64,000 nucleotides of DNA, from assembly GCA_041640655.1 (NCBI GenBank), contig JBEPZV010000008.1, positions 1 to 64,000 on the forward strand, in the 5' to 3' direction. Shown piece by piece: positions 20,778 through 62,730 of the stretch. The first letter of the stretch is position 1. Every line of letters begins with the position of its first letter. The stretch comes from a bacterium. GTDB lineage: Bacteria > Acidobacteriota > Blastocatellia > HR10. The translations under genes and the position numbers were made by a program. Under the pieces are notes generated by a model that was given only the letters and a program-made list of their open reading frames with translations, did no database searches and was not told where the DNA came from.

Positions 20778-20781
20778 AGGT

Positions 20782-38575: not shown

Positions 38576-39784
38576 ATGGTCGTCAGGCTTCGATTCCTGC
38601 AGTTCTCCGACGTCCATCTGGACTCCCGATTGACCGGCTCGCAACTGGCCTGGCCCCAGGAGAAGCGCGAGCAGCGCCGCCGAGAGCTCACCAAGCTGGT
38701 GGAGAAAGCCTGCCGCCTCGCCCGCGAGCACAAGGTCGAGGCTCTATTCATCCCCGGCGATCTCTGGGATGATGAGGCGATCTCGGCCGAGACCATCGCG
38801 TGCGTCCGGGAGGCTTTCGCGTCGCTCGATCCCGTCCCCGTCTTCATCGCCCCTGGCAATCACGACTGCTGCTCGCCCACGTCGTTTTACTCCGACGAGG
38901 TCCTGCGCGCGCGCGGCATGCGCCCATGGCCGAAGAACGTCACCATCTTCCGAACGGCCGAATTCAGGACGGTGCCGCATCCGGCGCGCCCGGAGGTCAC
39001 GGTCACCGGACGCGCGCACGTGCGCAACGTGCCTTTGGAAGAGCGGCTGTTGAGCGCTCCGATTCCGCGTCCCCCAGCTTCAATAAGCGTGCTGCTCTTT
39101 CACGGATCATGGATCGAATACGCCGGGCGCGACCGCTTTGAGCAGGAGAAGATGTTCACAGCCCCATTCTCCCGCCAGGAGCTGCTCGCGCAAGGCTTCT
39201 CCTATGCGGCCCTCGGCCATTACCACCACTATGCCGAGATCACCGACGCGGAGGGGCGCGTGCGCGCCGCCTACACCGGATGTCTCGCCGGTCGCTATCT
39301 CTCGGAGGCCGGTCCTCATTACGCCCTGCTCGGGGAGATCGGCGAGCACGGCCTCCTCGCGATGGAGAAGATTCGCGTGGATGAGCGGATGATCCACGAT
39401 GTGAAAGTGGACGTGACCGGAGTTGAGACCGAAAGCGGCTTGCGCGAGCGCGTCATCGGGAGACTGCGCGAGCATGGCGCCACGGCCTCGGACATCATCT
39501 TCCTGCGGGTGCAGGGACGGCTTCCGCGGGGCCTTCGCCCGGCGTTCATCCTCGAAGATCTGCAACACGAGTATTTCCACCTGGCCCTCGCCGATCGCAC
39601 GCGTCCGGCGTATGATCTGGACACGGCCGATCCGCGCACGACGCAGGGTCGCTTCATCCAAGAGATGCGGCGGCGCATCACGGAGACGTCCGATCCACAG
39701 GAACGCGCGTTTCTGGAACGGGTGCTCGACTACGGCCTCGATGCGCTCATCCAGGGCGAGGTGAAGCCCATCTACGAGGAGTGA
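38576..39784 (+). CDS. Mre11/SbcD-like metallophosphoesterase (YhaO-like)
   Basis: SDVHLD, GDLWD, GNHD, FHGS, LGHYH. Confidence 0.9.
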   Translation: MVVRLRFLQFSDVHLDSRLTGSQLAWPQEKREQRRRELTKLVEKACRLAREHKVEALFIPGDLWDDEAISAETIACVREAFASLDPVPVFIAPGNHDCCSPTSFYSDEVLRARGMRPWPKNVTIFRTAEFRTVPHPARPEVTVTGRAHVRNVPLEERLLSAPIPRPPASISVLLFHGSWIEYAGRDRFEQEKMFTAPFSRQELLAQGFSYAALGHYHHYAEITDAEGRVRAAYTGCLAGRYLSEAGPHYALLGEIGEHGLLAMEKIRVDERMIHDVKVDVTGVETESGLRERVIGRLREHGATASDIIFLRVQGRLPRGLRPAFILEDLQHEYFHLALADRTRPAYDLDTADPRTTQGRFIQEMRRRITETSDPQERAFLERVLDYGLDALIQGEVKPIYEE

Positions 39785-39812
39785 CGCGCACCCATCAGGA
39801 GAGCGTGCGGCC

Positions 39813-42743
39813 ATGAAGATCGAACGCCTGCATCTGATCGGCTTCGGGAAGCTGCGGAATTGTGCGGTCGTCTTCGACCCCGACAAGGTGAACCTCCTCA
39901 TCGAGGAGAACGAATTCGGCAAGAGCACGATCGTCGCGGCCATCGTGGCTGCGCTCTACGGCTTCCCTCCCCGCGAGCGCACGACGCCGGATGCGCTCGC
40001 CGAGCGCGAGGTGTATCGTCCCGATGATGACGGACCATATCAGGTGAGCTTGGAGGTGCGCGTTCCCGATCGGCATGGCTGGACCCGCCTGCGCATCCTC
40101 AGGGACTTCCGCCGCGGCCGCCCGCGGGTCTACAACCTCTCGGAAGGAGGGAAGGAGATCACGGATGAGTTCGCCCAGCAGCGGAAGGAGATCGGGGAGA
40201 TTCTTCTCGGGCTCTCTCGCGAACAGTTCGTGAACACGTGCCTCGTTCGACAGGCGGCGCTTCAAGTGCTTCCCGATCTGAGCGACCTCGCCGCGCAGCT
40301 TCAGAAGATCGCCGATGCCGAGACCGGGGATCGGACGGCGGCCGACGCCATAAGGGCCTTGAGGAAAGCCCTTCAGGAATTCCCCGCCTCGCGCATGGGG
40401 AGCGGGCCGCTGATGATTGACACCGAGCTCCAGCGCGCGAAGGCGGAATTGGAGCGCATTCATAAGGAGTTGGAGCAGTTGGATCAGGAGCGCCGCCGGA
40501 TTGAACCGCAACTGGTTCGAATCGGTGATCTGGAGCGCGAGATCGAAGAGGCGCAGGCGCGGCAGCGGCTCGCGCACTACTTGCGCGAACGCGCCGAATA
40601 TGAGCAGCTGGAACGCGCGCGCGAGCGACGAGAGAGCCTCGAAGCGGAACGACATCGCCTGCGCCAGGAATACGAGGCGCTCGCGCCTTACGAGACGTTC
40701 CCGGCGGCGCAGCTCGCGAACCTGGAGAGTTGGATGGGCGCTCTGCGCCGGATCGCGCGCGAACGCGCGGCGCTCGAGGAGCAGCTCGGACACGCGCGTC
40801 GCCGATATGCCGAGATCCGAGAGCAGGAGGGACGATTCGGCCCGCTCGCGTCCTTCACTCCAGCAGATCGCGAGCAACTGGTCGTGCTCGCCGAGCAGTA
40901 CAAAGAGCTTCACGAGAAGATTCATGAAGGGCGGCAGAAAGTGCACGCCGAGCAGCAGCGACTCGCCGAGCGCGGCATTCACCTTGAGGAGTTCGAGCGA
41001 TGGCGCGAGCGAGTGGGCACCCTCGATTTGGAGGAGCGTCGGCGCGCGCTCGAAGCCGAGGCGCGCCGGAGCGATCTCCAGCGCCAGAGCCGCCTCGCGG
41101 AAGAGCGCCGGGAAGAACATCTGGCGCTCTGCGCGGAGATCGAGCGAGAGCGCGATCGCGCGCGCCAATGGGCGGAACGCACGCTCATCCTCCCGCTGAT
41201 GGGGGGCATCATCACCTCGATCGCCCTCCTTCTCGGATTCGATCGCGCGAGCATTCTGCCCGGCCTTCTGACGGCACTGTCGCTCGGTCTCTGGCTCGCC
41301 CTTCGCCGCACTGCCAGAACGCACCGTCGGCAGGAATGGATGCGCGCTCGAGCGGAAGCCGATCGCCTTCAGCAGCAGATCGAGAGCCTGCATATCGAGC
41401 GCGCGCAGCTTGAGGACCAGATGCGTCCGCTTCTCGCCCGGACGGGATTGGAGTCGTTGGAGTCTCTGGCGCACGCCTGCAGGCGGCTGGAGACCTTGAC
41501 GGCGGAACTGCAGCCTCTGCTTTTTGAGCGCTCGACCCTTCGCGATCGTGAGCGCGAATTCGAGCAGAAGCGAGGCCAGCTCCGCGCGTTCCTGGATCGA
41601 GCCGGACGCCCGAGCGACGAACCGATTCAGGAGGAGATCGAACGCCTGATCCGAGATCTCGATCGCGTGTTCGAGCTCAAGCACGAGCGGACGCAGCTTG
41701 ATGAGGAGCTGGCTCAAGAGGAAGCCAAACGAGAGGATGTGCTCCGAGAGGAACAGGAATACCGCGAGCGCATCCTCGCCCTGCTTCGGGAGGCCCATGC
41801 CGTTGATCCCACGGAGACGACCCCATCGCTGGAGGGCATAGAAGCGGCGGTCGCGCGCTTTCGAGAGGGGATCGAGCGCTACAACGCCCTACAACGCGTG
41901 AAGCGAGAGCTCAAACAAGTGGAACGAGACCTCATGACGCTTCCCGAGCTTCCCATCCTCCTTGAGCAGCGCACGCGCGTGCGCGAGAGCCTCAGCCGGC
42001 GGGAAGCCGAGGATCCCGGACTCGCTGCCCATGTGCCCGAACGCTCCCCCGAGGAGTATGCGAGCGAAGCCGAACGCTGGAGCGCGTGCGAGCGCGCCCG
42101 GCATGAAGAACTGAAGCGACTCCAAATGCAAATCGCCGCCATACTCGATCGCCATGAGAAGCGGCGCCCTGAGCTCCTCGAACAGGAGCAGGACTTGAAG
42201 CAGCATCTGGAGCGCGTCCAAAACTTCAAACGGGCCGTCGAGTACGCGCTCGAGGTCTTCGAGCGGATCGCGCGGGAGATTCACGATCAGTGGGCCGAAG
42301 CCCTCACGGACATCTCCAGCGAATTGCTCCGCACCCTTCAGACCGATTACGCGGCTCTCCGTTTCGATCGGGAGCTGCGGCTGCGCGTCGCCCTGAGGGA
42401 ACGGGACGACATCCTGCAGACGAATCAGCTTCGCTCGCAGCTCTCGCTCGGCACGCGCGAGCAACTCAGCCTGATCGCGCGCCTCGCTGTCAGCCGCTAC
42501 CTCTCGCGCGATCGTCGCCTGCCGCTCATCCTCGATGAACCCTTCGCCAACTCCGATGATGCGCGCTTCGCGCGACTCATGCGCCTTCTGCTCGGCGATC
42601 TCTCGCGCGAGCACCAGATTATTATCACCAGTTGCCACCGGCAGCGACACGAATGGCTCAAGACCCAATATCCCGACCTCTTCGTCCAGCGTGTCTATTG
42701 GTGCACCCTGGGTCCCCTTCACACCTCTGGGCCTTCGCGCTGA
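39813..42743 (+). CDS. Rad50/SbcC-like SMC ATPase (YhaN-like) with internal TM hairpin
   Basis: ENEFGKST, long coiled coil, LSLGTREQ, LILDEPF, TSCH. Confidence 0.88.
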   Translation: MKIERLHLIGFGKLRNCAVVFDPDKVNLLIEENEFGKSTIVAAIVAALYGFPPRERTTPDALAEREVYRPDDDGPYQVSLEVRVPDRHGWTRLRILRDFRRGRPRVYNLSEGGKEITDEFAQQRKEIGEILLGLSREQFVNTCLVRQAALQVLPDLSDLAAQLQKIADAETGDRTAADAIRALRKALQEFPASRMGSGPLMIDTELQRAKAELERIHKELEQLDQERRRIEPQLVRIGDLEREIEEAQARQRLAHYLRERAEYEQLERARERRESLEAERHRLRQEYEALAPYETFPAAQLANLESWMGALRRIARERAALEEQLGHARRRYAEIREQEGRFGPLASFTPADREQLVVLAEQYKELHEKIHEGRQKVHAEQQRLAERGIHLEEFERWRERVGTLDLEERRRALEAEARRSDLQRQSRLAEERREEHLALCAEIERERDRARQWAERTLILPLMGGIITSIALLLGFDRASILPGLLTALSLGLWLALRRTARTHRRQEWMRARAEADRLQQQIESLHIERAQLEDQMRPLLARTGLESLESLAHACRRLETLTAELQPLLFERSTLRDREREFEQKRGQLRAFLDRAGRPSDEPIQEEIERLIRDLDRVFELKHERTQLDEELAQEEAKREDVLREEQEYRERILALLREAHAVDPTETTPSLEGIEAAVARFREGIERYNALQRVKRELKQVERDLMTLPELPILLEQRTRVRESLSRREAEDPGLAAHVPERSPEEYASEAERWSACERARHEELKRLQMQIAAILDRHEKRRPELLEQEQDLKQHLERVQNFKRAVEYALEVFERIAREIHDQWAEALTDISSELLRTLQTDYAALRFDRELRLRVALRERDDILQTNQLRSQLSLGTREQLSLIARLAVSRYLSRDRRLPLILDEPFANSDDARFARLMRLLLGDLSREHQIIITSCHRQRHEWLKTQYPDLFVQRVYWCTLGPLHTSGPSR

Positions 42744-47488: not shown

Positions 47489-48025
47489 ATGAGCGACACG
47501 CTGGGCTTGCTATTCCGAACCGCACAGCGCACCCCGCTTCGGGTGGGGATTCTCATCGCACTGCTTCTTATGCTCGCATTCTCGCTTGCGGATACGCAGC
47601 GCGCGGCACGGCCGGATCGCATCGCTTTCGAAGTGAGCGCGGATCGGCTGGAGTACGTCTACAACCTCATGCCTCCGCGCCCTCCCGTTGTCCCCGGACC
47701 CACCGTGCGCGTGCGCATCCGCCTCACGAATGAGTCGGCCGAAGCGCTCGCGCTCGATTTCCTCAGCTCGCAACGGTTCGATGTCCTTCTGGAGGATGAG
47801 CGAGGGGAGGTCGTCTTTCGCTGGTCCGAAGGCAAAATCTTCCTCCCCGTGCTCGGCCGTGAGACTGTGAAGCCTGGAGATTCGCTCGTCTACGAGGCGA
47901 CGTTCGCGCTGCCGGGTTCGGATCGGGGGATTCTGCCTGCCGGACGATATGTGCTGCGAGGGCTGCTTGTGGCCGAGACGCCATTTTCCGGCGCCCTGCC
48001 TGTGCGGATCGTCCACGCCCACTAG
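47489..48025 (+). CDS. Exported protein with BsuPI (intracellular proteinase inhibitor)-like domain
   Basis: F.SSQRFDV...VFRWSEGKIF...LPAGRYVL. Confidence 0.7.
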   Translation: MSDTLGLLFRTAQRTPLRVGILIALLLMLAFSLADTQRAARPDRIAFEVSADRLEYVYNLMPPRPPVVPGPTVRVRIRLTNESAEALALDFLSSQRFDVLLEDERGEVVFRWSEGKIFLPVLGRETVKPGDSLVYEATFALPGSDRGILPAGRYVLRGLLVAETPFSGALPVRIVHAH

Positions 48026-48043: not shown

Positions 48044-49246
48044 TTAGGGATCTCGTGCCGCCAGGCGCTCCAAGTACTGCGGGGACATCGCGCGCAACCG
48101 TTCCACTTCCTCTGGGAGGACCTCAAGCACATATGCGATCTCCTCGCGCGTGGTGTCCTTGCTCAGGGAGAACCGCAGGCTCCCTTGCACGAGATCGCGC
48201 GGGCGCCCGAGCGCCAGAAGCACATGCGAAGGTTCGAGCGATCCCGAGGAGCACGCAGCGCCCGTCGAGACGGCGATGCCCCGCAGATCGAGCCGGATCA
48301 GGAGCGCTTCCCCATCGAGGAACTGGAAGCTGAAGTTGGAGATGTTCGGGACCCGCTGCTCGCGATGGCCATTTCGCAGGACGAAGGGGATGCGCTCTTC
48401 GATCCCTTGCTCCAGCATGTCGCGCAATGCGCGCATGTGTCGGATGCGGTCGGGAAGCTGCTGGCGCGTCAATTCAGCCGCTCGTCCGAAGCCGACGATG
48501 GCGGGCACATTCTCCGTCCCCGAGCGCCGATCCCGCTCATGATGACCGCCGTCCATCTGGCGCACGAGGCGCACCCCGCGCCGCAGATAGAGGGCCCCGG
48601 CGCCTTTCGGGCCGTGAATCTTGTGCGCGGAGAAGGTCAACAGATCCACCCCCAGCTCATCCACGTGCACGGGCATCTTCCCCACGGCCTGCACGGCGTC
48701 GGTGTGGAGATACGGATAGGGCTGACCGCGCTCGGCGCGCACGCGCCGGACGAGTTCGGCGATCTCGCGAATGGGCTGGATCGTGCCGATCTCATTATTG
48801 GCGAGCATGATGCTGATCAGGATCGTGTCGGGGCGAAGCGCGGCATGAACGTCCTCGATGCGCACGAGCCCGTCCGGAGAGACGGGCAGATAGGTCACCT
48901 CAAAGCCGCGCCGCTCCAAGGCCCGACAGCTCTCAAGTACAGCGGGATGTTCGATCTGCGAGGTGATGAGATGCCGCCCCCGCTGCCCATGCGCTTCGGC
49001 GATCCCCTTCAGGGCGAGATTGTCCGACTCCGTCCCGCCACTGGTGAAGATGATCTCCGAGGGATCGGCACCGATCAACTCGGCCACGCGCGCGCGCGCC
49101 TCCTCGACGGCCGCGCGCGCTCGCTGCCCGAAGGCGTGAACGGACGAGGCATTGCCATACTCCTCCCGGAGATACGGGAGCATGGCCTCCAGCACCTCGG
49201 GGTCAAGGCGCGTCGTCGCCGCATTGTCCAGATACACACGCCGCAT
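48044..49246 (-). CDS. iscS: Cysteine desulfurase, IscS/NifS type
   Basis: YLDNAATT, FTSGGTESDN, SAHKIHGPKG, STGAACSSG. Confidence 0.95.
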   Translation of the reverse strand: MRRVYLDNAATTRLDPEVLEAMLPYLREEYGNASSVHAFGQRARAAVEEARARVAELIGADPSEIIFTSGGTESDNLALKGIAEAHGQRGRHLITSQIEHPAVLESCRALERRGFEVTYLPVSPDGLVRIEDVHAALRPDTILISIMLANNEIGTIQPIREIAELVRRVRAERGQPYPYLHTDAVQAVGKMPVHVDELGVDLLTFSAHKIHGPKGAGALYLRRGVRLVRQMDGGHHERDRRSGTENVPAIVGFGRAAELTRQQLPDRIRHMRALRDMLEQGIEERIPFVLRNGHREQRVPNISNFSFQFLDGEALLIRLDLRGIAVSTGAACSSGSLEPSHVLLALGRPRDLVQGSLRFSLSKDTTREEIAYVLEVLPEEVERLRAMSPQYLERLAARDP

Positions 49247-49283
49247 ATGGAAAATTGTGCCGCCTCCGTCTAGAATGTGCAAC

Positions 49284-50081
49284 GTGCGGCCCAGCGGTGT
49301 GATCACGCTCCTGACCGACTTCGGCCTCGCCGATTTCTTCGTCGGGGCGATGAAGGGGGTCATTCTCTCGATTCATCGCGAGGCCGTGATTGTTGATCTC
49401 ACGCACCTGATCCCCCCCCAGGACATCTACGCGGCGGCTCTGACGCTGGCCGACTGCTACGCGACCTTTCCCGAGGGCACGATCCACGTGGCCGTCGTCG
49501 ATCCGGGTGTCGGCTCCGAGCGACGCGCCGTGCTCATCGAGACCGCGCGATATTTCTTCATCGGTCCGGACAATGGGCTCTTCACCCTCGTCGTGGAGAA
49601 TGAGTCGCTGCAGCGCGCCATCCAGATCACGGCCGAACGCTTCTTCCGCCATCCGGTGAGCCGGACATTTCACGGGCGAGATGTCTTCGCCCCGGTCGCG
49701 GCGTGGCTCGCGCGCGGCGTGCCCCCATCGGAGTTCGGGCCGGAAGTCTTGGACCTGACGCGCCTGCCGATTCCTCGCGTGGAACGCCTGGACGAGAAGC
49801 GATGGCGCGGTCAGGTCATTCACGTGGACCGCTTCGGCAACCTGATCACCAACGTGACGGCGCGCGATGTCCCCCTGGAGGCTCTGCGCCAGGGAGGGAG
49901 ACTCCTCGTCAACGATCATGAGGTGTCCGCCCTGCACACGCACTATCACGAGGCGGCTCCGGGGGAACTCTTCGCCCTGGTGGGCAGCACCGGCCGCGTG
50001 GAGATCGCCGTCCGAGAGGGATCAGCCGCTACAGCGCTGGGCGTGGGTCGAGGCGCGACGGTGGAGATTCTTCTCCCGTGA
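49284..50081 (+). CDS. SAM hydroxide adenosyltransferase (DUF62, fluorinase/chlorinase superfamily)
   Basis: ITLLTDFG, VVDPGVGSERR, GPDNG, TFHGRDVF, DRFGNL; start is GTG 49284 or ATG 49275. Confidence 0.9.
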   Translation: MRPSGVITLLTDFGLADFFVGAMKGVILSIHREAVIVDLTHLIPPQDIYAAALTLADCYATFPEGTIHVAVVDPGVGSERRAVLIETARYFFIGPDNGLFTLVVENESLQRAIQITAERFFRHPVSRTFHGRDVFAPVAAWLARGVPPSEFGPEVLDLTRLPIPRVERLDEKRWRGQVIHVDRFGNLITNVTARDVPLEALRQGGRLLVNDHEVSALHTHYHEAAPGELFALVGSTGRVEIAVREGSAATALGVGRGATVEILLP

Positions 50082-51294
50082 GGGGAGCGGCTCTCTCCAC
50101 TGCTCGATAAATGAAGCGGGCGCGCCCGAAGCGCACCTCGAATCCGTTTCGCAGCAAGTTCTCCCGCACGCGCTGTCCGTTGACGTACGTGCCGTTGGTG
50201 CTCCCCAAATCCACGACGACGAAACTGCCGCTCGGATGCCGGACGAACTTCGCATGGTGTTTGGAGACGGTCGGATCGTCAATGACGAAATGGTTATCGA
50301 GGGTCTTGCCCACGGTGACCACGGGGCGATCGAGGATGAACGCGATCTGCTCGCGACCGTCTGGCAGTACCTGCACCAGATGCGGTTGATGCACGCGCGG
50401 GGGTGAAGTCGCGGGCAGCAGACTTGCCCCGCAGCAGAGGCATACGGTCACGTCCGCGCGCTGTTCTCTTCCACACGCGGGACAGACGCGCATCTCCCGC
50501 TCGGGAATCCGCGCGCCACACGCGGCGCACGCCTGCCCGATCGTCCCCACGCGCCCGCAGTTCGAACAAGGCGCCAGGCCCGTGAGCAGCATCGTCCCCT
50601 GCCGATGCGGTGAGCGCGCGACATGCCGCACGGTCCGGACCTCGACGTACGCGAAAATGGCGAACATGAGGAGCGCGACGATCCCCATCACCAAAGCGTT
50701 CGGCAGCAGACCGTGCTGTCCGGCCGAGAGCAGTGCATCGAACAGCGCATGCAGCAGTGCCGCCCTCATCCACCCCCGAGCGATCGTGCGCGCGCGCACA
50801 CTTCCGACATTGGGCAGCATCTTCGCCTGACTGAGCGCCAATCCCCAGAAGGCCGCGAACAACGCATGCCCGGGATTGGAGAGAATGCCCCGCACGATGA
50901 AGATCTCACTGCCGAATCGGCTCAAGTAGAGCACGTTCTCAGCCGCCGCGAACCCCAGCGCTGCTGCGGCCCCGTAGATGACGCCATCCACCGGCTCATC
51001 GAACTCCGGCCGGCGGTAGGCGTAGCTCATGACGGCCCACAGCTTCACCGCCTCCTCCACCGGGCCGACGACGAGAAAGAGGATGAGCCACTCGCCCACG
51101 AGATTCGATCCGAAGAGCCCCGAGAGTACCAGGGCGCCCACCGTGTTGAAGACCATCGCCGGCAGCGTCGCCACCGCGCCGAGCACGAACGTCCACACGA
51201 TCGTGCGCAGCGGCTCTCGATCGTACCAGTCCTGAAACCAGAACCAGAGGAGCCACAGCACACAGGGGATGAGCGACAGAGCGAGCGTCTCCAT
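50029..51294 (-). CDS. PrsW-family intramembrane protease fused to a double zinc ribbon and FHA domain
   Basis: DREP, GPVEEAVK, FAAAEN, GHALF, LHALFD; CSNC-CAAC-CPAC-CLCC; GK...VSKHHA...STNGTYVNG. Confidence 0.88.
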   Translation of the reverse strand: METLALSLIPCVLWLLWFWFQDWYDREPLRTIVWTFVLGAVATLPAMVFNTVGALVLSGLFGSNLVGEWLILFLVVGPVEEAVKLWAVMSYAYRRPEFDEPVDGVIYGAAAALGFAAAENVLYLSRFGSEIFIVRGILSNPGHALFAAFWGLALSQAKMLPNVGSVRARTIARGWMRAALLHALFDALLSAGQHGLLPNALVMGIVALLMFAIFAYVEVRTVRHVARSPHRQGTMLLTGLAPCSNCGRVGTIGQACAACGARIPEREMRVCPACGREQRADVTVCLCCGASLLPATSPPRVHQPHLVQVLPDGREQIAFILDRPVVTVGKTLDNHFVIDDPTVSKHHAKFVRHPSGSFVVVDLGSTNGTYVNGQRVRENLLRNGFEVRFGRARFIYRAVERAAPLTGEESPPSRLDPRPAL

Positions 51295-51295
51295 C

Positions 51296-53032
51296 TCACG
51301 CCGTCCGTTTCACGACGAGCAGCGTCATATCATCGGCCGGGCGGGCCTTCCCGAGAAAGTGGCTGAGGGCCTCCTCGATACGATCGCGCAGGGCGGCGGC
51401 GCGCTGCTCGCGAGAGCGCCGCACGACCTCCACCAGGCGCGCGACGCCGAATTCCTCCCCGTGCTCGTTCGCGCTCTCACTGATCCCATCGCTGAAGAGG
51501 ACGAGCACGTCTCCCGGCTCCAACCGGAGGCATTGCTCCTCGTACAGCGTCTCCTCCAGGATACCGACGGGAATCCCCCCCGTCTCCAGGAACTCCACTG
51601 ATCCGTCCGCGCGCATGAGCAACGGCGGGTTATGCCCGGCGTTGGTGTAGCTCAACTCGTGCGCGCGTGGATTCAACCGCGCGAGCCAGAGCGTCGCGAA
51701 CTTATTCGGAGCCGTCGTCTCGCAGAGATAGCGATTGATGGCCGCCATCATCTCGGCGACCGAAGCCGCCGAGCGCGCCTGAGCGCGTACGCTCGCATGC
51801 AGCGCCGACATGAGCATCGCCGCATCCATCCCCTTGCCGCACACATCGCCCAGGGCGAGCAGCAACGTCCCTTCGGGCCCGCGAACGAAGTCGAAGTAAT
51901 CCCCGCCGACTTCGTAGCAGGGGAAGCTGATGCCCGTCAGATCGTACCCCTCGACCTCGGGCGGCGCGACCGGCAGCAGTTGAAATTGCAGATCGCGCGC
52001 TTGAGCCAACTGGTGCTTGATCCGCTCATTCTCCAGGTGCTGCTCCAGCAGCAGCGCGTTCTCGATCTTGATCGCCGCGACCGACGCCACGGTCGTGAGC
52101 AGTTGCAAATCTTCCTCGGTGAACGCGCCCGCATTCATCGGATTGTCCACGTAGATCATCCCCACGACCGACGAGGGTGTCTCCCGCCGACCCCCCAGCA
52201 GGGGAACGGCCATGATCGAACGGATGCCGCTCAGCAGAATCGAGTCGCGCTGGCGGAAGCGCTCGTCCGTCTGCGCATCAAAGGTGAGCACCGAGCGTCC
52301 GCGCTCGATGACCTCCTCCAGGATCGAACGGCTGATGCGCACGACTTGCTCGACCACCGACGGCTCCTGTCCGCGATAGCCCGCGATCTTGCACGACCAT
52401 TCTCCCTGAGCGCCTCGCAGCAAGAGGAACACGCGCTCGGCGGGGACCGCCTCCAGCACCAAACCAACGATCTGCCGGAGCACCTCATCGAGCGAGAGTG
52501 GAGAGAGCAAGGCGAGGCCGACCTGAGTGAGCACAGCCAACAGTCGTTTGCTCCGCTCGACCTCAGGCGGCAATCCGGGCACGGTGACCGAACGCGCCGC
52601 CTCGAGCAGAGAGACGATCTCGGGAGTCAGCGGCGGACGCTTCACGGATGATGTCGAGGTCAACGTCTCCGGGTGCGCGACGATCACGTCGCCAGTCCCC
52701 AGTTCGTCCATCGGGACCTCGGCGCCAGAAATCGGCTCGGCAGGAGGGAGGAGCTCCAGTACCGTCTCCCCCACCTGAAGGCGATCGCCTGCAGCGACCG
52801 CGACCGTCCCCCGAATGCGGGCGCCGTTCAGATATGTGCCGTTGGCGCTCCCCAAGTCCGTCACCCACCACGTCTTCCCCTCCTCGCGCAGCTCCGCATG
52901 CACGCGCGAGGTGAAGGGATCGTCCACACAGAGATCGCTGCGCACCGAACGCCCGATGACGATCCGCCGTTTCCGGATCTCAACGACGATCGGCGCTCGA
53001 CCCGGCGAATACACCCTGAGCTTCACCATCAT
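51296..53032 (-). CDS. FHA-GAF-PP2C (SpoIIE/RsbU-type) phosphatase
   Basis: IGRS...SRVHA...SANGTYLNG; GAF SIMAVPL...GMIYVD; VGGDYFD, GDVCGKG, NAGHNPP, SDGISE, DDMT. Confidence 0.92.
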   Translation of the reverse strand: MMVKLRVYSPGRAPIVVEIRKRRIVIGRSVRSDLCVDDPFTSRVHAELREEGKTWWVTDLGSANGTYLNGARIRGTVAVAAGDRLQVGETVLELLPPAEPISGAEVPMDELGTGDVIVAHPETLTSTSSVKRPPLTPEIVSLLEAARSVTVPGLPPEVERSKRLLAVLTQVGLALLSPLSLDEVLRQIVGLVLEAVPAERVFLLLRGAQGEWSCKIAGYRGQEPSVVEQVVRISRSILEEVIERGRSVLTFDAQTDERFRQRDSILLSGIRSIMAVPLLGGRRETPSSVVGMIYVDNPMNAGAFTEEDLQLLTTVASVAAIKIENALLLEQHLENERIKHQLAQARDLQFQLLPVAPPEVEGYDLTGISFPCYEVGGDYFDFVRGPEGTLLLALGDVCGKGMDAAMLMSALHASVRAQARSAASVAEMMAAINRYLCETTAPNKFATLWLARLNPRAHELSYTNAGHNPPLLMRADGSVEFLETGGIPVGILEETLYEEQCLRLEPGDVLVLFSDGISESANEHGEEFGVARLVEVVRRSREQRAAALRDRIEEALSHFLGKARPADDMTLLVVKRTA

Positions 53033-53645
53033 TGGCCTCCGTGACGACCCGCGTCCCACTCAGCAGATCATGCCACCCCCGTCCCTGCCCATCCACGAGC
53101 ATCCAGAGGAATCCCAGTCCGAGCGGGAGCGCCGCCAGCCCGTAGCCGAGCGTATGACGCAGGAGCGAACGTCCCCAAGAGAGGGGCTGGCCATCGGCGC
53201 GCACGATCTGGATCCCCACAAGCGCCATCCCCACTGACTGCCCGCGCACGCTGCAGAGTATAAGATGGTTCACCAGCAAAACCAAGCACGCCGCGAGCGC
53301 GCTCCACATCGCCAGCTCCGCCAGCAGGAGGCGCCCCCGAAGGGCGACGGCCCCCATGACGGTCACTCCCATCGCTCCCAGAAGCAACACCAGGTCGAGA
53401 AAGAACGCCACGAGTCGAACCACCAGGGGTGCCGGGGCGCGCCCGCCCGCGCGAGGAGGAGATTCCACCTCCTGCCACGGCATCGTGATCGCGCGCTCTC
53501 GAGGATCGAAGGCGGCAATCGTCGGGTCGGCGGGAGATTCGACCGCGTGCGCTGCTGCCGTCACCAGTGGCGCGCCACAGGCTCGGCAGAATCTCGCTCC
53601 CGGGCGCTGCGGCATGTGACATCGCAGACAATGACTCGTCACCAT
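52980..53645 (-). CDS. Zinc ribbon + RDD family membrane protein
   Basis: CLRC...FCRACG; RLVAFFLD, GQSVG, LRH, WHDLLSGTRVV. Confidence 0.85.
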   Translation of the reverse strand: MVTSHCLRCHMPQRPGARFCRACGAPLVTAAAHAVESPADPTIAAFDPRERAITMPWQEVESPPRAGGRAPAPLVVRLVAFFLDLVLLLGAMGVTVMGAVALRGRLLLAELAMWSALAACLVLLVNHLILCSVRGQSVGMALVGIQIVRADGQPLSWGRSLLRHTLGYGLAALPLGLGFLWMLVDGQGRGWHDLLSGTRVVTEANDGEAQGVFAGSSADRR

Positions 53646-55147
53646 TCGCCCTCATGCCGGAAAAGCAGGGACACCTCACCGATCTGCACGCGATCTCCAT
53701 CGTGGAGCGCCTGTGGGGTTCGCGGCGGGAGCAACCGACGACCGTTGACGAGCGTCCCGTTGACGCTCGCCAGGTCCTCAATCCAATATCGCCCCTCCGC
53801 CCGCCAGATGCGCGCATGCCGGCGCGAGACCGTGGCCCCCGGATCGTACGGGGACAAATCCACGTCCGGGAAGATGCCGGAGATCGGATCGGCACGACCG
53901 ATGAGATTCGACTCCTTGAGCAAAGCTCGCGTTGCCCGCACTTCCCCCGAGCGCGGATCGCAAACGAACAGATAGGCGCTCGCCCGCATGGGCTCGACTT
54001 CGATCGGTTGACGTGCGCCGCAGTACGCGCAATAGAGATCGTCCGCTCCGATGCTCACCCCGCAATAGCTGCAGTAGACCGTGCCCACGTCCAGGCGAGG
54101 CGCGACTTCTGATCCCGCGCGGCGGACGAGATCGCCGAACGCCATGCGATAGGCGTGCTCCAGACGATCGCCGCACTGCTCGCGCAGGAAGGCCAGATGT
54201 TCTTCCAGCGCGCTCTTCATCTCGCGCGCCGAGGCGAACCGATCTTCGGGCGCATAGGCGACGGCGCGCATGAGGAGGCGCTCCATCTGGGGCGTGAGCT
54301 CGGGAGTATATTGGCGCGGCGTCGGATTCCGCGTGAAGTCGAAGATCAGCAGCGGTTGATCGCGCGGGTCTACCCCCGTCAGCAGATGAAACATCGTGGC
54401 GCCCAGCGAATAGATGTCCGAACGCGGCTCGACCTGCCCAGAGAACAGCTCCGGCGGCGCATACCCCATTGTGCCGACGGCCGTCACCCCCTTCTCCTGA
54501 GGGGCGACGACGCGCGCGATCCCAAAGTCAATGAGTACGATGCGATTGGCCTCGGGATCAATCATGATGTTGGCCGGTTTCAGGTCCCGATAGATGATCG
54601 GCGGCTGCCGCGTGTGCAGGTAATCGAGCACATCGCAGATCTGAATGGCCCACATCGTGACGGTCAGCTCGTCGAAACGCCCGCCGACCAACTGCAGCCG
54701 CGTGGCCAGATCCCCCCCCGAGATGAACTCCATGACGAGATAGTATCGCCCCCCTTCGACGAAATGGTCATAGATGATCGGGATCGAAGGGTGTCGGAGG
54801 CTGGCCAGAAGCCGCGCTTCGCGCTGGAAGTCGAGGATGGCTTTCTCCCGAAGTGCGGGATCGGAGAACATCTCGATCATCTCCTTGACGGCTCGCACGG
54901 CACCATTCAGATGGCGGTCACGAGCTTGATAGACATTCCCCATGCCCCCTCCCCCGACCCGCCGCACGATCTCATAGCGCCCGCGTAAGACCGCACCAGG
55001 AGGCAACTCCGCGAGCGGGGCGAAAGCTCCCGGCCTCCCGCCCTCCATCTCCCCGAATGAGCCGGAGAAGACTTGCCGCGCCCCACATTCGCCGCAGAAG
55101 AGATCCTCCGGGTGAACGGGTGATCCGCACCGCGCGCAGAACTTCAT
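53639..55147 (-). CDS. Hanks-type Ser/Thr kinase with N-terminal and internal zinc ribbons and C-terminal FHA
   Basis: CARC..CGEC; GGGGMGNVY, AVKE, YRDLKPANIM, DFG, GTMGYAPPE; CSYC..CAYC; IGR...VSRRHA...SVNGT. Confidence 0.93.
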   Translation of the reverse strand: MKFCARCGSPVHPEDLFCGECGARQVFSGSFGEMEGGRPGAFAPLAELPPGAVLRGRYEIVRRVGGGGMGNVYQARDRHLNGAVRAVKEMIEMFSDPALREKAILDFQREARLLASLRHPSIPIIYDHFVEGGRYYLVMEFISGGDLATRLQLVGGRFDELTVTMWAIQICDVLDYLHTRQPPIIYRDLKPANIMIDPEANRIVLIDFGIARVVAPQEKGVTAVGTMGYAPPELFSGQVEPRSDIYSLGATMFHLLTGVDPRDQPLLIFDFTRNPTPRQYTPELTPQMERLLMRAVAYAPEDRFASAREMKSALEEHLAFLREQCGDRLEHAYRMAFGDLVRRAGSEVAPRLDVGTVYCSYCGVSIGADDLYCAYCGARQPIEVEPMRASAYLFVCDPRSGEVRATRALLKESNLIGRADPISGIFPDVDLSPYDPGATVSRRHARIWRAEGRYWIEDLASVNGTLVNGRRLLPPRTPQALHDGDRVQIGEVSLLFRHEGEW

Positions 55148-55716
55148 ATCCCTTCGATGAGAAACCGCAAGAAGGTCTTCCCCACGATGATCTCGTCGCC
55201 GTGCCGCAGCGGCACGGGCTGATGCGGGTGGAGCCGAGGCCCGCGATTCACGAACGTCCCGTTCAGGCTCCCCAGATCTTCGATCCAGAATCGCCCCTCC
55301 CGATAGAAGATGCGCGCGTGGCGGCGAGAGACCTTGGCCTCGGGATCGTCTTCGTCCAGATCGATCTCGGGGAAGATCCCGTGCTCGGCATCCCACCGTC
55401 CGAGCATCACCTCCGACTCCCAGATGGGGAACTCCCGACCGACACGACCGCCGCGCACAAGCACCAATTTCGCTCGCGGCCGGCGATCTGGGGGGGAACG
55501 GTCTGGAAGCGCCGCGCCTTCAGCCGGAGAGACCATCGGCGGCCTCTCGGCGGGCGCGCGTCCGGAGGGTCGAGCGCTCGGCTTCGGTGAATCCGCCGCC
55601 TCTTCTGCAGGCGTCGCCTGCCCGCTCTCAGCGTCCGACGCCAGGCTCACCCCGCACGCGTCACAATACGTTGAGTCCTCCAGATTCTCCATCCCGCACC
55701 GGCGACAGCGGATCAT
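55144..55716 (-). CDS. Zinc ribbon-FHA protein (FraH-like architecture)
   Basis: CRRC..CDAC, Pro/Ser/Ala linker, LGR...VSRRHA...SLNGTFVN; SD GGAGG. Confidence 0.9.
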   Translation of the reverse strand: MIRCRRCGMENLEDSTYCDACGVSLASDAESGQATPAEEAADSPKPSARPSGRAPAERPPMVSPAEGAALPDRSPPDRRPRAKLVLVRGGRVGREFPIWESEVMLGRWDAEHGIFPEIDLDEDDPEAKVSRRHARIFYREGRFWIEDLGSLNGTFVNRGPRLHPHQPVPLRHGDEIIVGKTFLRFLIEGI

Positions 55717-57331: not shown

Positions 57332-59622
<2,291 letters not shown>

Positions 59623-59626
<4 letters not shown>

Positions 59627-60102
59627 GGATGAGCAGGGGTCGCATCGAGCATTCTTCCGACGTTCACGAGAAGAGCGCGCCTGCCCCTGCCTCGGAGTGG
59701 GAACGCGCCTCGATGATCCTCGGCGTGGCCGTGCGCGCGCTGCTGCCGTTGCTGTTGCTGTTCTCGATCTTCCTGCTTCTGCGAGGTCACCATGCGCCGG
59801 GAGGGGGATTCGTCGGCGGACTCGTCGCGGCGGCCGCCGTGGCGCTCTACGCTTTAGCGCATGGGGCGACGGCGGCGCAACAGCTGTTGCGCTTCTCTCC
59901 TCGAGAACTGATCGCCGCCGGGCTCATGACGGCCTTCGCCAGTGGTCTGGTGGGGCCGCTCACGGGAGCCCCCTTTCTCACCGGGCGCTGGGCGAAGGTG
60001 GGCCATCTGGAGTTGGGGACGCCGCTGCTCTTCGACGTCGGCGTGTACCTGGTCGTCATCGGCGTCACCCTCTGGATCATTCTGACGCTCGCGGAGGAAT
60101 GA
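59623..60102 (+). CDS. mrpB: Mrp antiporter subunit B
   Basis: [20 protein letters not shown]; exact start uncertain. Confidence 0.92.
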
Positions 60103-60104
60103 GC

Positions 60105-60452
60105 ATGGAACTGCTGCTGGCCGTCGTCATTGGAAGCCTGTACGCGACGGGCCTTTACATGCTGCTGCGGCGCAGCGTCGTGAAGCTCATCATCGGGCTG
60201 GGCCTCCTCTCCAATGGGAGCAATCTGCTGATCTTCACCATGGGCCGCCTGGTTCGCGGTCGGCCTCCCATTGTCCCCGAAGGCGAGTCGAGCGTTCCCC
60301 CTCCCTTTGCGGATCCCCTCCCACAGGCGCTCATCCTGACGGCTATCGTCATCAGCTTCGGCGTGCTCGCCTTCGCGCTCGTGCTCATTCATCGCGCGTA
60401 TCAAAAGGTTGGGACGGATGACCTCGATGACTTGAAGACGACCGACACGTGA
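60105..60452 (+). CDS. mrpC: Mrp antiporter subunit C
   Basis: [17 protein letters not shown]. Confidence 0.95.
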
Positions 60453-60470
60453 CGTCTGGAGAAACGCCCC

Positions 60471-61994
60471 ATGCGGCTCATCCTCCCCATCGCGATCCCG
60501 TTGGTGACGGCGATCCTCGGGCTCGTCGTCTGGCGATGGCGGACGGCGCAGCGCGGACTGGGTGTTGCCGGAGCGGCCGCCTTGCTCATAGCTTCCCTCG
60601 AGCTCCTGAAGAGCGTGTGGCAGCAGGGGCCGCAGGCGACATGGATCGGGAATTGGCCCGCGCCCTTCGGTATCACGCTGATTGCGGACCTGCTGAGCGC
60701 GATCATGGTCGTGCTGGCCGCCGTGATCGGTCTCGCCGTCGCCCTCTATTCGCTCGCGCACATAGACCCGGCGCGTGAGGCCTTCGGCTATTATCCCCTC
60801 CTTCACATTCTCCTCATGGGCGTGTGCGGCGCCTTTTTGACGGGCGATCTCTTCAACCTCTACGTCTGGTTCGAGGTCATGCTCATGGCGTCCTTCGTTC
60901 TCCTGGCCCTGGGTGGAGAGCGCGCCCAACTGGAGGGCGCGATCAAGTACGTCACGCTCAATCTGATGGCCTCGGCGTTCTTTCTGACGGCCGTCGGGCT
61001 ACTCTATGGGGTCGTAGGGACGTTGAACATGGCCGATGTCGCGCTGAAGATTCGCCCGCTCGCGTCGTCCTGGATCACGAGGTCCATAGCGTTTCTGCTG
61101 CTGACGGCCTTCGGGATCAAAGCGGCCATCTTCCCCCTCTTCTTCTGGCTCCCGGCCTCCTACCACACCCCTCCGGTCGCCGTCTCGGCCGTTTTCGCCG
61201 GACTGCTCACGAAGGTGGGCGTTTATGCGCTTCTTCGCGTCTTCACGCTGATCTTTCCCGATGACGGGCGGACAATTCCCACCGTGATCCTCGCGCTCTC
61301 CGCCCTCACAATGCTCACGGGCGTCTTGGGAGCCGTGGCCCATGGCGAATTCCGACGCATCCTCTCGTTTCACATCATCAGCCAGATCGGGTATATGATC
61401 CTGGGGCTCGGGCTCTTCACGACGGCCGGGCTCGCGGGCTCGATCTTCTACATCATCCACCACATCGTCGTCAAAACCAACCTCTTCCTCGTCAGCGGCC
61501 TCGCTCACGCCGTGCATGGCAGTTTCGATCTGAGTCGGCTCGGCGGCCTCTATCGAACGCATCCGGGTCTGGCAGTGCTCTTCCTGATCCCCGCTCTCTC
61601 CTTGGCGGGTCTGCCACCGCTGTCGGGATTCTTCGCGAAACTGCTTCTGGTCCGCGCCGGCCTGCACGCGGAGCAGTGGGGGATCGTCGCCGTTGCTCTC
61701 GGAGTGAGCTTGCTGACCCTGCTCTCCATGATGAAGATCTGGGCGGAAGTGTTTTGGAAATCCAAGGAGGCCGATCCACCGGCTGAGGATTCTCTCGCTC
61801 TGCCCGTCTCCCCTGCAGCCGAGCGCATCGGGATGCCGTCGCGATTGGGCCTTTGGTCGAGCGCCGGGCTCGCGATCTTGACGGTGATGATCGGCCTGGG
61901 CGCGGACCTGGTGCTCGCGTTCGCCGAGGCTGCTGCTGAGCAACTGCGGAATCCCGATCTCTACATCTCCACTATGCAGAGGGGGCGTCCATGA
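60471..61994 (+). CDS. mrpD: Mrp antiporter subunit D
   Basis: [28 protein letters not shown]. Confidence 0.95.
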
Positions 61995-62467: not shown

Positions 62468-62730
62468 CGCAGGGCGCGTCCTGGCTCGCTCTTGGCATGC
62501 TTCTGCTGGCTCTCTTTCTGGCCTTCATTCGCTTGCTGAGAGGGCCAACCCTGCCGGATCGCGTCATCGCCCTGGATTTCATGGCCACACTCGGCGTGGG
62601 GATAAGCGCCGTCTACGCTCTGGCAGTGCAAAACCCTGTCTTCCTGGACATCGCCGTTCTCCTGGCGCTCATCTCCTTCTTGAGCACCATCGCCTTCGCG
62701 CAATACGTGCGGAAGCGAGGGACACCATGA
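62464..62730 (+). CDS. mrpF: Mrp antiporter subunit F
   Basis: RGPTLPDRVIALD. Confidence 0.95.
   Translation: MTQGASWLALGMLLLALFLAFIRLLRGPTLPDRVIALDFMATLGVGISAVYALAVQNPVFLDIAVLLALISFLSTIAFAQYVRKRGTP

What the first reader, a model, noticed from the sequence alone, without database searches (positions are those of the whole stretch)
50029..51294. PrsW protease fused to a double zinc ribbon and FHA: phosphorylation-gated proteolysis
The catalytic motifs are intact (EExxK, FxxxEN, two His motifs), followed by four CxxC and an FHA whose conserved GR is GK. Characterised PrsW proteins lack such a tail. Inference: pThr binding recruits or activates the protease. The TM ZAS anti-sigma at 21201-21695 is a speculative substrate.
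Basis: partly seen in the sequence, partly recalled or inferred. Interest (0 to 1): 0.75.

Follow-up and report, generated by a model that had tools for sequence, protein, structure and literature searches.

The report
PrsW membrane protease with FHA tail
A membrane-embedded protease carries a phosphothreonine-reading tail and is the last gene of a five-gene kinase/phosphatase operon, so its cutting is probably controlled by phosphorylation; the design has been noted before but never tested.

Summary
ORF 50029-51294 (-) encodes 421 aa: a PrsW-type intramembrane protease with all four catalytic motifs, then four CxxC pairs, then an FHA domain with Lys in place of the GR arginine. Topology places the tail in the cytoplasm.

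It is not rare. All 120 listed homologues carry PrsW plus FHA. PrsW+FHA clusters occur in four phyla. Zhang et al. 2012 (PMC3482391) already named PrsW-FHA/Zn-ribbon fusions "signaling peptidases". No experimental work turned up.

What I add:
- It is the last gene of a tight five-gene operon: ZnR-FHA, ZnR-kinase-ZnR-FHA, ZnR-RDD, FHA-GAF-PP2C, PrsW-ZnR-FHA.
- Co-location with the phosphatase recurs in relatives.
- A T234-x-x-L/M motif next to the membrane is conserved and confined to the FHA-bearing family. It looks like a self-ligand, as in GarA and DgcB.
- A natural PrsW-ZnR-RDD fusion links the operon's two membrane proteins.

The proposed anti-sigma substrate at 21201-21695 is real but sits in its own operon 29 kb away, with nothing tying it to PrsW. 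Phosphorylation-coupled proteolysis is the best reading, and it is unproven.

The parts
50029..51294 (-). Gene for the 421-aa PrsW-double zinc ribbon-FHA protein
   Evidence: ORF; Pfam PrsW 138.2 bits and FHA 72 bits; 120 of 120 listed homologues share PF13367+PF00498; AF2 model with pLDDT 88.5 and pTM 0.82.
50617..51294 (-). PrsW membrane domain, residues 1-226. Catalytic motifs E80E81xxK84, F115xxxE119N120, H143 and H182xxxD186. Seven membrane crossings, N-terminus outside, C-terminus inside.
   Evidence: Helices from the AF2 model. Motif conservation. Mean K+R per loop alternates across 121 sequences: 1.98, 1.81, 2.74 and 3.78 on the inside against 0.34, 0.35, 0.36 and 0.70 on the outside. 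The motifs match the YpdC motifs quoted in PMC12943098.
50584..50613 (-). Juxtamembrane motif S228-P-H-R-x-G-T234-x-L-L237. Candidate phospho-acceptor and FHA ligand (inferred).
   Evidence: T234 in 117 of 121; position +3 is L in 64 and M in 56 of 121. pLDDT of this block is only 61. The motif is found in 3 of 101 PrsW-bearing cluster representatives, all from the FHA family, and in 0 of 56 PrsW+ZnR representatives without FHA.
50431..50568 (-). Double zinc ribbon, residues 243-288, four CxxC pairs
   Evidence: All 8 Cys are invariant in the alignments. Pfam DZR and Zn_ribbon_3 are sub-threshold. 51 of 102 scanned relatives carry PrsW plus a Zn-ribbon without FHA.
50104..50382 (-). FHA domain, residues 305-397, GarA/OdhI-like, with K330 at the 'GR' arginine position
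   Evidence: Pfam. Foldseek top hits are GarA and OdhI, target-normalised TM 0.74-0.88. phmmer gives GarA at 1.4e-16, with K330 aligned to the GarA Arg.
51296..53059 (-). FHA-GAF-PP2C (SpoIIE-type) phosphatase. The true start is probably 53029. Its stop lies 1 nt before the PrsW start codon.
   Evidence: Pfam. 119 of 120 listed homologues have FHA+GAF+SpoIIE and are about 570-577 aa. It shares 12 exact contig lengths with the PrsW-FHA hit list against 0.45 expected.
52980..53645 (-). Zn-ribbon-RDD membrane protein, function unknown. Candidate partner or substrate (inferred).
   Evidence: Pfam RDD 77 bits. 13 close orthologues. 6 exact contig lengths shared with the phosphatase list against 0.15 expected. 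The natural fusion P0339 aligns to both PrsW and this protein.
53639..55147 (-). Zn-ribbon-Hanks Ser/Thr kinase-Zn-ribbon-FHA, 502 aa. The 585-aa ORF reaching 55396 is over-extended.
   Evidence: Pfam. The start ATG overlaps the upstream gene's stop as ATGA. G-loop, VAIK-type Lys, YRDLKPAN, DFG and APE-like motifs are readable in the translation.
55144..55716 (-). First gene of the operon: small Zn-ribbon-FHA protein, 190 aa
   Evidence: ORF. AAGGAGG lies 12 nt upstream of the ATG. Pfam FHA 64.6 bits; Zn_Ribbon_1 22.7 bits is sub-threshold.

Best explanation
The gene encodes an active PrsW-type (glutamic/CPBP-like) intramembrane protease. A cytoplasmic tail of two zinc ribbons and an FHA domain connects it to the Ser/Thr phospho-signalling system encoded by the same five-gene operon.

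Proposed working:
1. The soluble Hanks kinase writes pThr marks and the FHA-GAF-PP2C phosphatase erases them.
2. The protease's FHA domain reads one of these marks.
3. That reading decides whether the protease cuts a membrane substrate. It acts either by docking the phosphorylated substrate or partner, or by a self-liganded switch.
4. In the switch version, the FHA binds the protease's own conserved juxtamembrane T234-x-x-L/M segment once it is phosphorylated, as in GarA/OdhI and DgcB.

Shown here:
- The architecture, conservation of the catalytic and pThr-binding residues, and the predicted cytoplasmic tail.
- The operon structure and its recurrence on shared contigs in relatives.
- A T-motif confined to the FHA-bearing family.
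- A natural PrsW-ZnR-RDD fusion.

Inferred:
- Phosphorylation of T234, FHA-pThr binding and gating of proteolysis.
- The identity of the substrate. The operon's ZnR-RDD protein is my first candidate.
For: - Catalytic motifs are present in 120-121 of 121 family members. They correspond to the YpdC motifs whose E75A/E76A and H175A mutants lose function, as quoted in PMC12943098.
- FHA residues G329, S344 (113 of 121), H347 (120 of 121) and N367 (121 of 121) are kept. The closest solved relatives are GarA and OdhI.
- Tail topology: K+R is enriched in loops 1, 3 and 5 and in the C-terminal juxtamembrane segment (10.3 in total against 1.75 outside) across 121 sequences. This agrees with the DeepTMHMM result reported for a PrsW-PilZ protein in PMC12943098.
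- Operon: five same-strand genes separated by a 4-nt, 7-nt and about 50-nt overlap and a 1-nt gap. Together they carry four FHA domains, six Zn ribbons, a kinase and a PP2C phosphatase.
- Synteny by proxy: the PrsW-FHA hits (118 with a contig length) and the phosphatase hits (120) share 12 exact 'longest contig' lengths against 0.45 expected. Seven of these contigs are 3.8-29 kb.
- T234 is present in 117 of 121 and position +3 is L or M in 120 of 121. The motif is absent from 56 of 56 PrsW+ZnR representatives that lack FHA.
- Precedent: the DgcB FHA binds its own phospho-tail, pT14 with V17 at +3.
- P0339 fuses PrsW, a ZnR and RDD in one chain.
- Zhang et al. 2012 reached the same general inference for such fusions.
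Against: - There is no biochemical evidence of any kind.
- K330 replaces the phosphate-contacting Arg. It is tolerated in 40 of 121, but whether Lys binds pThr equally well is unknown.
- The link between the T-motif and FHA rests on essentially one clade, so it is confounded by shared ancestry. R/K at position 330 also simply tracks subfamily.
- The synteny evidence is indirect. My one genome-contig scan returned generic FHA loci, and 0 of the 80 kept loci hold a fused PrsW-FHA, so gene order in relatives was never seen directly.
- The RDD gene has only 13 close orthologues, so it may not accompany the wider family.
- The PrsW-RDD fusion is a single 50%-identity cluster representative of unknown cluster size (could not be made).
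- From recall: FHA domains such as GarA also bind unphosphorylated partners, and B. subtilis PrsW cuts RsiW outside the membrane. A cytoplasmic FHA would therefore have to act allosterically or by recruitment.
Confidence: 0.6

Rival explanations
1. Scaffold only. The ZnR-FHA tail merely anchors the soluble kinase and phosphatase (and the small ZnR-FHA protein) at the membrane, or places the protease in a complex. Proteolysis itself is constitutive or is triggered from outside the cell, as for B. subtilis PrsW, and does not depend on phosphorylation.
For: The kinase, the phosphatase and the small FHA protein show no Pfam membrane domain, and the only membrane proteins in the operon are PrsW and RDD. 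51 of 102 scanned relatives have PrsW plus Zn ribbons without any FHA, so the tail has a function that does not need FHA. From recall: characterised PrsW responds to envelope stress sensed outside the cell.
Against: The FHA pThr-binding residues and the FHA-clade-specific T234xxL/M motif are strongly conserved. This suggests a specific phospho-dependent contact within the protease itself and not just a generic anchor.
Confidence: 0.2
2. First reader's substrate. The protease is the site-1 protease for the transmembrane ZAS anti-sigma factor at 21201-21695, as PrsW is for RsiW.
For: The anti-sigma is real. It has an HxxxCxxC motif, one TM segment and about 50 extracytoplasmic residues, and it follows an ECF sigma gene at 21692-22369. 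The only characterised PrsW substrate is an anti-sigma.
Against: It lies 29 kb away in its own operon with LTXXQ, HlyD, ABC and MacB genes. The PrsW here scores 116.8 bits against the 225-bit equivalog cut-off, so it is not an orthologue of B. subtilis PrsW. Nothing in the PrsW operon is sigma-related.
Confidence: 0.07
3. Self-processing. The PrsW domain cuts its own chain and releases the ZnR-FHA tail as a soluble cytoplasmic phospho-reader. This parallels the autoproteolytic release proposed for PrsW-toxin fusions.
For: Zhang et al. 2012 propose that N-terminal PrsW domains autoprocess C-terminal toxin domains. The segment at residues 231-240 between the membrane and the first Zn ribbon has low model confidence, pLDDT 61, so it is probably flexible.
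Against: The same paper separates the signalling fusions (FHA, PilZ, cNMP, Zn ribbon) from the toxin fusions by sequence and architecture. The tail holds no toxin domain. The operon already encodes a free ZnR-FHA protein.
Confidence: 0.06

Closest known systems
B. subtilis PrsW (YpdC), site-1 protease of anti-sigma-W RsiW
   Same: Same Pfam family (PF13367, 138 bits). The same four motifs are present. The NCBIfam PrsW profile aligns over positions 4-200 of 210.
   Different: It scores 116.8 bits against the 225-bit equivalog cut-off, so it is not an orthologue. It has a 195-residue cytoplasmic tail that YpdC lacks. It sits in a kinase/phosphatase operon, not next to a sigma/anti-sigma pair.
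PrsW fusions to intracellular signalling domains (Zhang et al. 2012, PMC3482391; PrsW-PilZ LIC_20173, PMC12943098)
   Same: [quoted passage not shown] The PrsW-PilZ protein is predicted to have 7 TM helices in the PrsW domain, a periplasmic N-terminus and a cytoplasmic sensor domain.
   Different: Those are computational mentions without operon analysis, a candidate phospho-site or a candidate substrate. The paper's supplementary PrsW architecture file is not held as text, so I could not check whether this clade is listed.
GarA/OdhI and Bdellovibrio DgcB: FHA proteins switched by their own phosphorylated tail
   Same: The FHA domain is closest in sequence and fold to GarA and OdhI. The T234-M-L-L237 segment resembles the DgcB self-ligand, pT14-S-I-V17, in having a hydrophobic residue at +3.
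   Different: The candidate site lies N-terminal of the FHA, next to the membrane, in a protease. Phosphorylation is not shown. Lys replaces the phosphate-contacting Arg.
STK / FHA / FHA-PP2C operons, e.g. Deinococcus DRA0331-0334 (bioRxiv 10.64898/2026.01.23.701218, abstract only)
   Same: An operon with a Ser/Thr kinase, a stand-alone FHA protein and a phosphatase that carries its own FHA next to PP2C.
   Different: Here the operon also holds two membrane proteins (RDD and PrsW) and a GAF domain in the phosphatase, and every protein except the phosphatase carries Zn ribbons.

Membership tests
PrsW family intramembrane protease (Pfam PF13367 / MEROPS M82 as named by sources) | Profile match above the curated cut-off | tested here: met
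   138.2 bits against a 23.5-bit cut-off, residues 27-214, profile positions 1-193 of 196.
PrsW family intramembrane protease | Four motifs: EExxK, FxxxE, H and HxxxD/N | tested here: met
   E80E81xxK84, F115xxxE119, H143 and H182xxxD186 are each present in at least 120 of 121 aligned family members (D186 is D in 111 and N in 10). The motif definition is taken from PMC12943098 passages.
PrsW family intramembrane protease | Polytopic membrane core with the motifs inside TM helices | tested here: met
   The AF2 model has helices at 2-21, 29-61 (kinked), 65-90, 101-127, 129-159, 166-193 and 199-226, and the motifs fall within them.
PrsW equivalog (orthologue of B. subtilis PrsW; NCBIfam NF033739) | Score at or above the equivalog cut-off | tested here: not met
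   116.8 bits against a 225-bit cut-off.
PrsW equivalog | Cleaves an RsiW-type anti-sigma factor | not testable with these tools
   No sigma or anti-sigma gene in the operon. The nearest pair is 29 kb away.
FHA domain (PF00498) | Profile match and beta-sandwich fold | tested here: met
   72 bits against a 20.7-bit cut-off. Foldseek hits to GarA, OdhI, Rv0020c and Ki67 FHA with target-normalised TM 0.74-0.88.
FHA domain | pThr-binding residues: G-R, S-x-x-H and N-G | tested here: inconclusive
   G329, S344, H347, N367 and G368 are present, but Arg is replaced by K330. Lys occurs in 40 of 121 family members and Arg in 80. Binding competence of the Lys form is unknown.
FHA domain | Binds phosphothreonine peptides | not testable with these tools
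   Needs ITC or pull-down with pThr peptides.
Double zinc ribbon (PF12773 DZR) | Profile match above the cut-off | tested here: not met
   18.2 bits against 27.3; Zn_ribbon_3 20.4 bits against 27.
Double zinc ribbon | Two Cys4 knuckle pairs (four CxxC) | tested here: met
   C243/246, C256/259, C271/274 and C285/288 are invariant in 121 of 121. Many homologues do pass PF12773 in the precomputed annotation.
Known anti-phage defence systems (PADLOC) | Match of the protease or its partners to a defence model | tested here: not met
   0 hits for PrsW, the phosphatase and ZnR-FHA. The kinase matches only generic kinase models (PD-T4-6, mad6).

The most novel reading that the evidence does not exclude
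The protease is a self-liganded phospho-switch. The operon kinase phosphorylates T234 in the protease's own juxtamembrane segment. The GarA-like FHA domain then binds it, in cis or across a dimer, and this opens or closes the intramembrane active site. The operon's Zn-ribbon-RDD membrane protein is the substrate or an obligate partner. If so, this would be, as far as my searches show, the first described bacterial case of regulated intramembrane proteolysis gated from the cytoplasm by Ser/Thr phosphorylation, and it would give the RDD family a function.
Probability: 0.2. Interest if true: 0.75.

Novelty: new member of a known kind. Interest (0 to 1): 0.4.

Why it matters
Regulated intramembrane proteolysis in bacteria is known to be triggered from outside the cell, by envelope stress or ligand loss. 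A protease whose trigger is a cytoplasmic pThr mark would join two large signalling worlds, Hanks kinases and intramembrane proteases.

The architecture is widespread. It occurs in Acidobacteriota, Chloroflexota, Bacillota and Actinomycetota clusters, yet it is untested.

This locus gives a compact, complete test set: kinase, phosphatase, free FHA protein, protease, a candidate partner (RDD) and a specific candidate site (T234). The idea can therefore be tested directly by co-expression. The general idea is not new, since it was stated in 2012.

Tried and rejected
- **Related loci.** The search for related loci on genome contigs with alignment A1 chose generic FHA peptide patterns. 584 candidates were confirmed and 80 loci kept, but 0 of 80 hold a PrsW-FHA fusion and only 4 hold PrsW alone.
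- **Plasmids.** tblastn against plasmids found 33 records, and 0 cover at least 80% of the query.
- **Complex prediction.** Complex prediction of PrsW-ZnR-FHA (A1) with ZnR-RDD (A2) scored 0.06 against a mark of 0.32. The verdict was 'no answer', so I use it neither for nor against binding.
- **Covariation.** Position 330 (R/K) shows high mutual information with dozens of columns. This reflects a subfamily split, so nothing can be inferred about contacts.
- **Cluster size.** The listing of cluster members for the fusion P0339 and the family representatives could not be made because the database was switched off.
- **PDB.** The PrsW domain has 0 hits at E <= 10. Foldseek of the whole model returned only FHA matches, so similarity to Rce1/CPBP structures was not tested.
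- **Promoters and terminators.** The scan of the operon found nothing above shuffled expectation.
- **Defence system.** Rejected as a reading.
- **Supplement.** The Zhang 2012 supplement listing PrsW architectures is not held as text.
Full report
**1. Observation**

Its codon-position GC is typical of genes in this window (GC3 0.81).

Pfam finds PrsW-protease at residues 27-214 (138.2 bits, cut-off 23.5). It finds FHA at residues 326-390 (72 bits, cut-off 20.7). The Zn-ribbon models over residues 243-289 stay below their cut-offs.

In an alignment of the query with the 120 listed homologues:
- E80, E81, K84, F115, E119, N120 and H143 occur in 120 of 121 (one gap row).
- H182 occurs in 121 of 121, and D186 is D in 111 and N in 10.
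- The eight Cys of the four CxxC pairs are invariant.

phmmer against the PDB aligns the tail to GarA (E 1.4e-16) and puts K330 on the Arg of the 'GR' motif. Position 330 is R in 80, K in 40 and Q in 1 of 121. Lys occurs in 12 of 12 relatives above 60% identity and in 28 of 109 others. It is a subfamily trait, not decay.

**2. How common is the architecture?**

The 90%-cluster search found 434 proteins with E <= 1e-3 among the 8000 candidates scored. All 120 listed carry PF13367 plus PF00498. Thirteen carry an NCBI organism name: 11 are Acidobacteriota (mostly Blastocatellia) and 2 are Deltaproteobacteria/Polyangia. The best hits are 95% and 84% identical. The window itself is most likely from a Blastocatellia-like acidobacterium. 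Its RDD neighbour is 91% identical to a protein of 'bacterium HR10'.

The profile search of 1.84 billion 50%-cluster representatives gave 988 hits at E <= 1e-30. Among the 150 listed, only two are full-length single-stretch matches, P0287 and P0018. This orthologous family is therefore tight.

I ran Pfam on 102 of those 150. The 48 left out had their best stretch in the FHA part of the profile (mostly long multi-FHA proteins) or were short fragments. The architectures were:

| Architecture | Count of 102 |
|---|---|
| PrsW + FHA | 2 |
| PrsW + Zn ribbon(s), no FHA | 51 |
| PrsW alone | 46 |
| PrsW + RDD | 1 |
| PrsW + ankyrin | 1 |
| ZnR + FHA fragment | 1 |

The ESM Atlas lists four separate clusters in which 98-100% of members carry both PrsW and FHA. 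The two scores below 0.9 are leads only.

| Commonest phylum | Members | Score |
|---|---|---|
| Acidobacteriota | 51 | 0.99 |
| Chloroflexota | 58 | 0.91 |
| Bacillota | 155 | 0.89 |
| Actinomycetota | 74 | 0.84 |

The Zn-ribbon tail is therefore a common PrsW accessory, and adding FHA is a recurrent, multi-phylum theme.

**3. What is in print**

Full-text searches for PrsW with 'FHA domain' and with 'FHA' found 1 and 5 papers. In the one relevant paper, Zhang et al. 2012 (PMC3482391), I read the passages found by term search. The paper's supplementary PrsW architecture file is not held as text. A 2026 paper on Leptospira (PMC12943098, passages) describes a PrsW-PilZ protein with 7 TM helices in the PrsW domain, a periplasmic N-terminus and a cytoplasmic sensor domain. 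It also recalls the YpdC motifs and the loss-of-function mutants E75A/E76A and H175A. I found no experimental study of a PrsW-FHA protein in these searches. Subscription-only literature is not covered.

**4. Topology**

The AF2 model is confident (mean pLDDT 88.5, pTM 0.82; alignment of 106 rows, being the query plus 105 of the 120 hits). It has helices at 2-21, 29-41/43-61 (one kinked span), 65-90, 101-127, 129-159, 166-193 and 199-226. Two small ribbon regions and a beta-sandwich follow.

Mean K+R per loop across 121 sequences alternates cleanly:
- Loops 1, 3, 5 and the post-TM7 segment: 1.98, 1.81, 2.74 and 3.78.
- N-terminus and loops 2, 4, 6: 0.34, 0.35, 0.36 and 0.70.

This gives seven crossings, with the N-terminus outside and the C-terminus inside. 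Even if residues 29-61 were two spans, everything from TM 65-90 onward keeps the same orientation. The tail is cytoplasmic either way, which is also what Cys4 ribbons and an FHA domain require.

**5. Surroundings: a five-gene operon**

On the same strand, directly upstream, lie four genes.
- **FHA-GAF-PP2C/SpoIIE phosphatase** (51296..53059; homologues suggest a start at 53029). Its stop is 1 nt from the PrsW ATG.
- **Zn-ribbon-RDD membrane protein** (52980..53645).
- **Zn-ribbon-Hanks kinase-Zn-ribbon-FHA protein**.
- **A fifth gene that the long-ORF view hides.** Reading the upstream DNA showed it at 55144..55716, 190 aa, Zn ribbon plus FHA, with AAGGAGG upstream. Its TGA overlaps the kinase's real ATG as ATGA, so the kinase is 502 aa (53639..55147) and not 585 aa.

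The five genes overlap or abut: a 4-nt overlap, a 7-nt overlap, an overlap of about 50 nt and a 1-nt gap. Together they carry four FHA domains, six Zn ribbons, one kinase with intact catalytic motifs (readable) and one PP2C. Downstream, a convergent SAM hydroxide adenosyltransferase gene overlaps the PrsW 3' end by 53 nt.

**6. Is the neighbourhood conserved?**

None of the 80 kept loci has the fusion. As a substitute I compared the 'longest contig' lengths reported for the hit lists of three operon proteins.

The PrsW-FHA list (118 values) and the phosphatase list (120 values) share 12 exact lengths, against 0.45 expected from the density of near-misses. The shared lengths are 3821, 7203, 12506, 14510, 15313, 23232, 29186, 41947, 44091, 88107, 392279 and 3082426 bp. 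On the 3.8-kb and 7.2-kb contigs the two genes must be adjacent or nearly so.

The phosphatase and RDD lists (46 values for RDD) share 6 lengths against 0.15 expected, including a 2909-bp contig. Non-matching entries are uninformative, because the top-120 lists differ and only one contig is reported per cluster. The RDD protein has only 13 close orthologues (at least 53% identity). It may therefore be a clade-specific member.

**7. Two new leads on mechanism**

*(a) A candidate phospho-site.* Between TM7 and the first ribbon lies S228-P-H-R-x-G-T234-x-L-L237.
- T234 is present in 117 of 121, and position +3 is L (64) or M (56).
- The block has the lowest confidence of the folded part, pLDDT 61.
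- Among 101 PrsW-bearing cluster representatives, the full motif occurs in 3. All three belong to the FHA family: P0287 and the fragments P0288 and P0362.
- It occurs in 0 of 56 PrsW+ZnR proteins without FHA. Those share only the 'SP[FHY]R' beginning.

A Thr with a hydrophobic +3 residue is the ligand type of GarA-like FHA domains. In DgcB the FHA binds its own phosphorylated tail, pT14 with V17 in the +3 pocket, and the GR arginine (R61) contacts the phosphate (PMC6733907, section 10). From recall, GarA and OdhI are switched by binding their own phosphorylated N-terminus.

My inference is that T234 is phosphorylated by the operon kinase and read by the protease's FHA, in cis or in trans. The caveat is that motif and FHA co-occur in essentially one clade, so shared ancestry could explain the association.

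*(b) A natural fusion.* Representative P0339 (461 aa) is a PrsW membrane domain, then a Zn ribbon, a linker and an RDD domain. It aligns to the window's PrsW over residues 1-263 (35% identity, E 6e-35). It aligns to the window's whole ZnR-RDD protein over residues 4-201 (30% identity, E 6e-20). This is a Rosetta-stone-type link between the operon's two membrane proteins. It is a single representative, and I could not obtain its cluster size.

**8. Most likely working**

This is an active intramembrane protease whose output is coupled to the operon's pThr cycle through its cytoplasmic FHA (confidence 0.6). Within that reading, I put the T234 self-ligand switch at about 0.3 and RDD as partner or substrate at about 0.25-0.3.

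The rivals are:
- The tail is only a membrane anchor for the soluble kinase and phosphatase (0.2).
- The protease is the site-1 protease of the distant ZAS anti-sigma (0.07).
- The protease releases its own tail by self-cleavage (0.06).

The anti-sigma at 21201-21695 is genuine. It has HxxxCxxC, one TM segment, and follows the ECF sigma gene at 21692-22369. But it heads its own LTXXQ-HlyD-ABC-MacB operon, and the PrsW here is not an equivalog of the RsiW protease (116.8 bits against 225). No PADLOC defence model matches the protease, the phosphatase or the small FHA protein.

**9. Verdict**

It is not demonstrated, and the proposed substrate has no support.

On novelty, this is a new member of an architecture already noted in 2012 and widespread in databases. 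Interest is moderate (0.4). A specialist would not be surprised by the fusion, but phosphorylation-gated intramembrane proteolysis has apparently never been tested. This compact operon, with a named candidate site and a candidate partner, makes it directly testable.

Noticed in passing
window 55144-55716 (-) and 53639-55396 (-): The 585-aa kinase ORF is over-extended. Its first 83 codons overlap, in another frame, a separate 190-aa Zn-ribbon-FHA gene. That gene's stop overlaps the real kinase start as ATGA. A longest-ORF gene call misses the small gene.
   Followed up: yes
protein P0339: A natural single-chain fusion of a PrsW membrane domain, a Zn ribbon, a linker and an RDD domain. It is collinear with the window's PrsW and its ZnR-RDD neighbour.
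   Followed up: partly
window 52980-53645 (-) against PADLOC model PDLC04051: One PD-T4-6 kinase model (476 positions) matches the operon kinase over positions 29-293 and weakly matches the RDD protein over positions 337-473 (E 1.4e-4). This implies that kinase-RDD fusion proteins exist, a second hint that RDD domains work with Ser/Thr kinases.
   Followed up: no
window 16833-22369 (-): An ECF sigma (21692-22369), a ZAS-type anti-sigma (21201-21695), an LTXXQ/Spy-like protein (20782-21204), a HlyD-type adaptor, an ABC ATPase and a MacB/FtsX permease form what looks like one envelope-stress/efflux operon.
   Followed up: partly
window 50029-50081: The 3' ends of the convergent PrsW gene and the SAM hydroxide adenosyltransferase gene (49152-50081, +) overlap by 53 nt. 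No terminator above chance was found there.
   Followed up: no
PrsW+Zn-ribbon relatives: PrsW proteins with Zn-ribbon tails but no FHA share a juxtamembrane 'S-P-[F/H/Y]-[R/K]' motif a few residues after the last TM helix. Its role is unknown.
   Followed up: no
window 57332-62730 (+): An Mrp/Mnh-type multisubunit cation/proton antiporter operon: Proton_antipo_M, MbhD/E, MnhB, MNHE and MrpF.
   Followed up: no
window 38576-42743 (+) and 3514-5313 (-): An SbcD-like phosphoesterase with an SbcC-like AAA_23 ATPase, and elsewhere an ATP-dependent DNA ligase with all three domains.
   Followed up: no
window 47489-48025 (+): A BsuPI-type 'intracellular proteinase inhibitor' domain protein lies 2 kb downstream of the PrsW gene on the other strand. 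It is probably unrelated.
   Followed up: no
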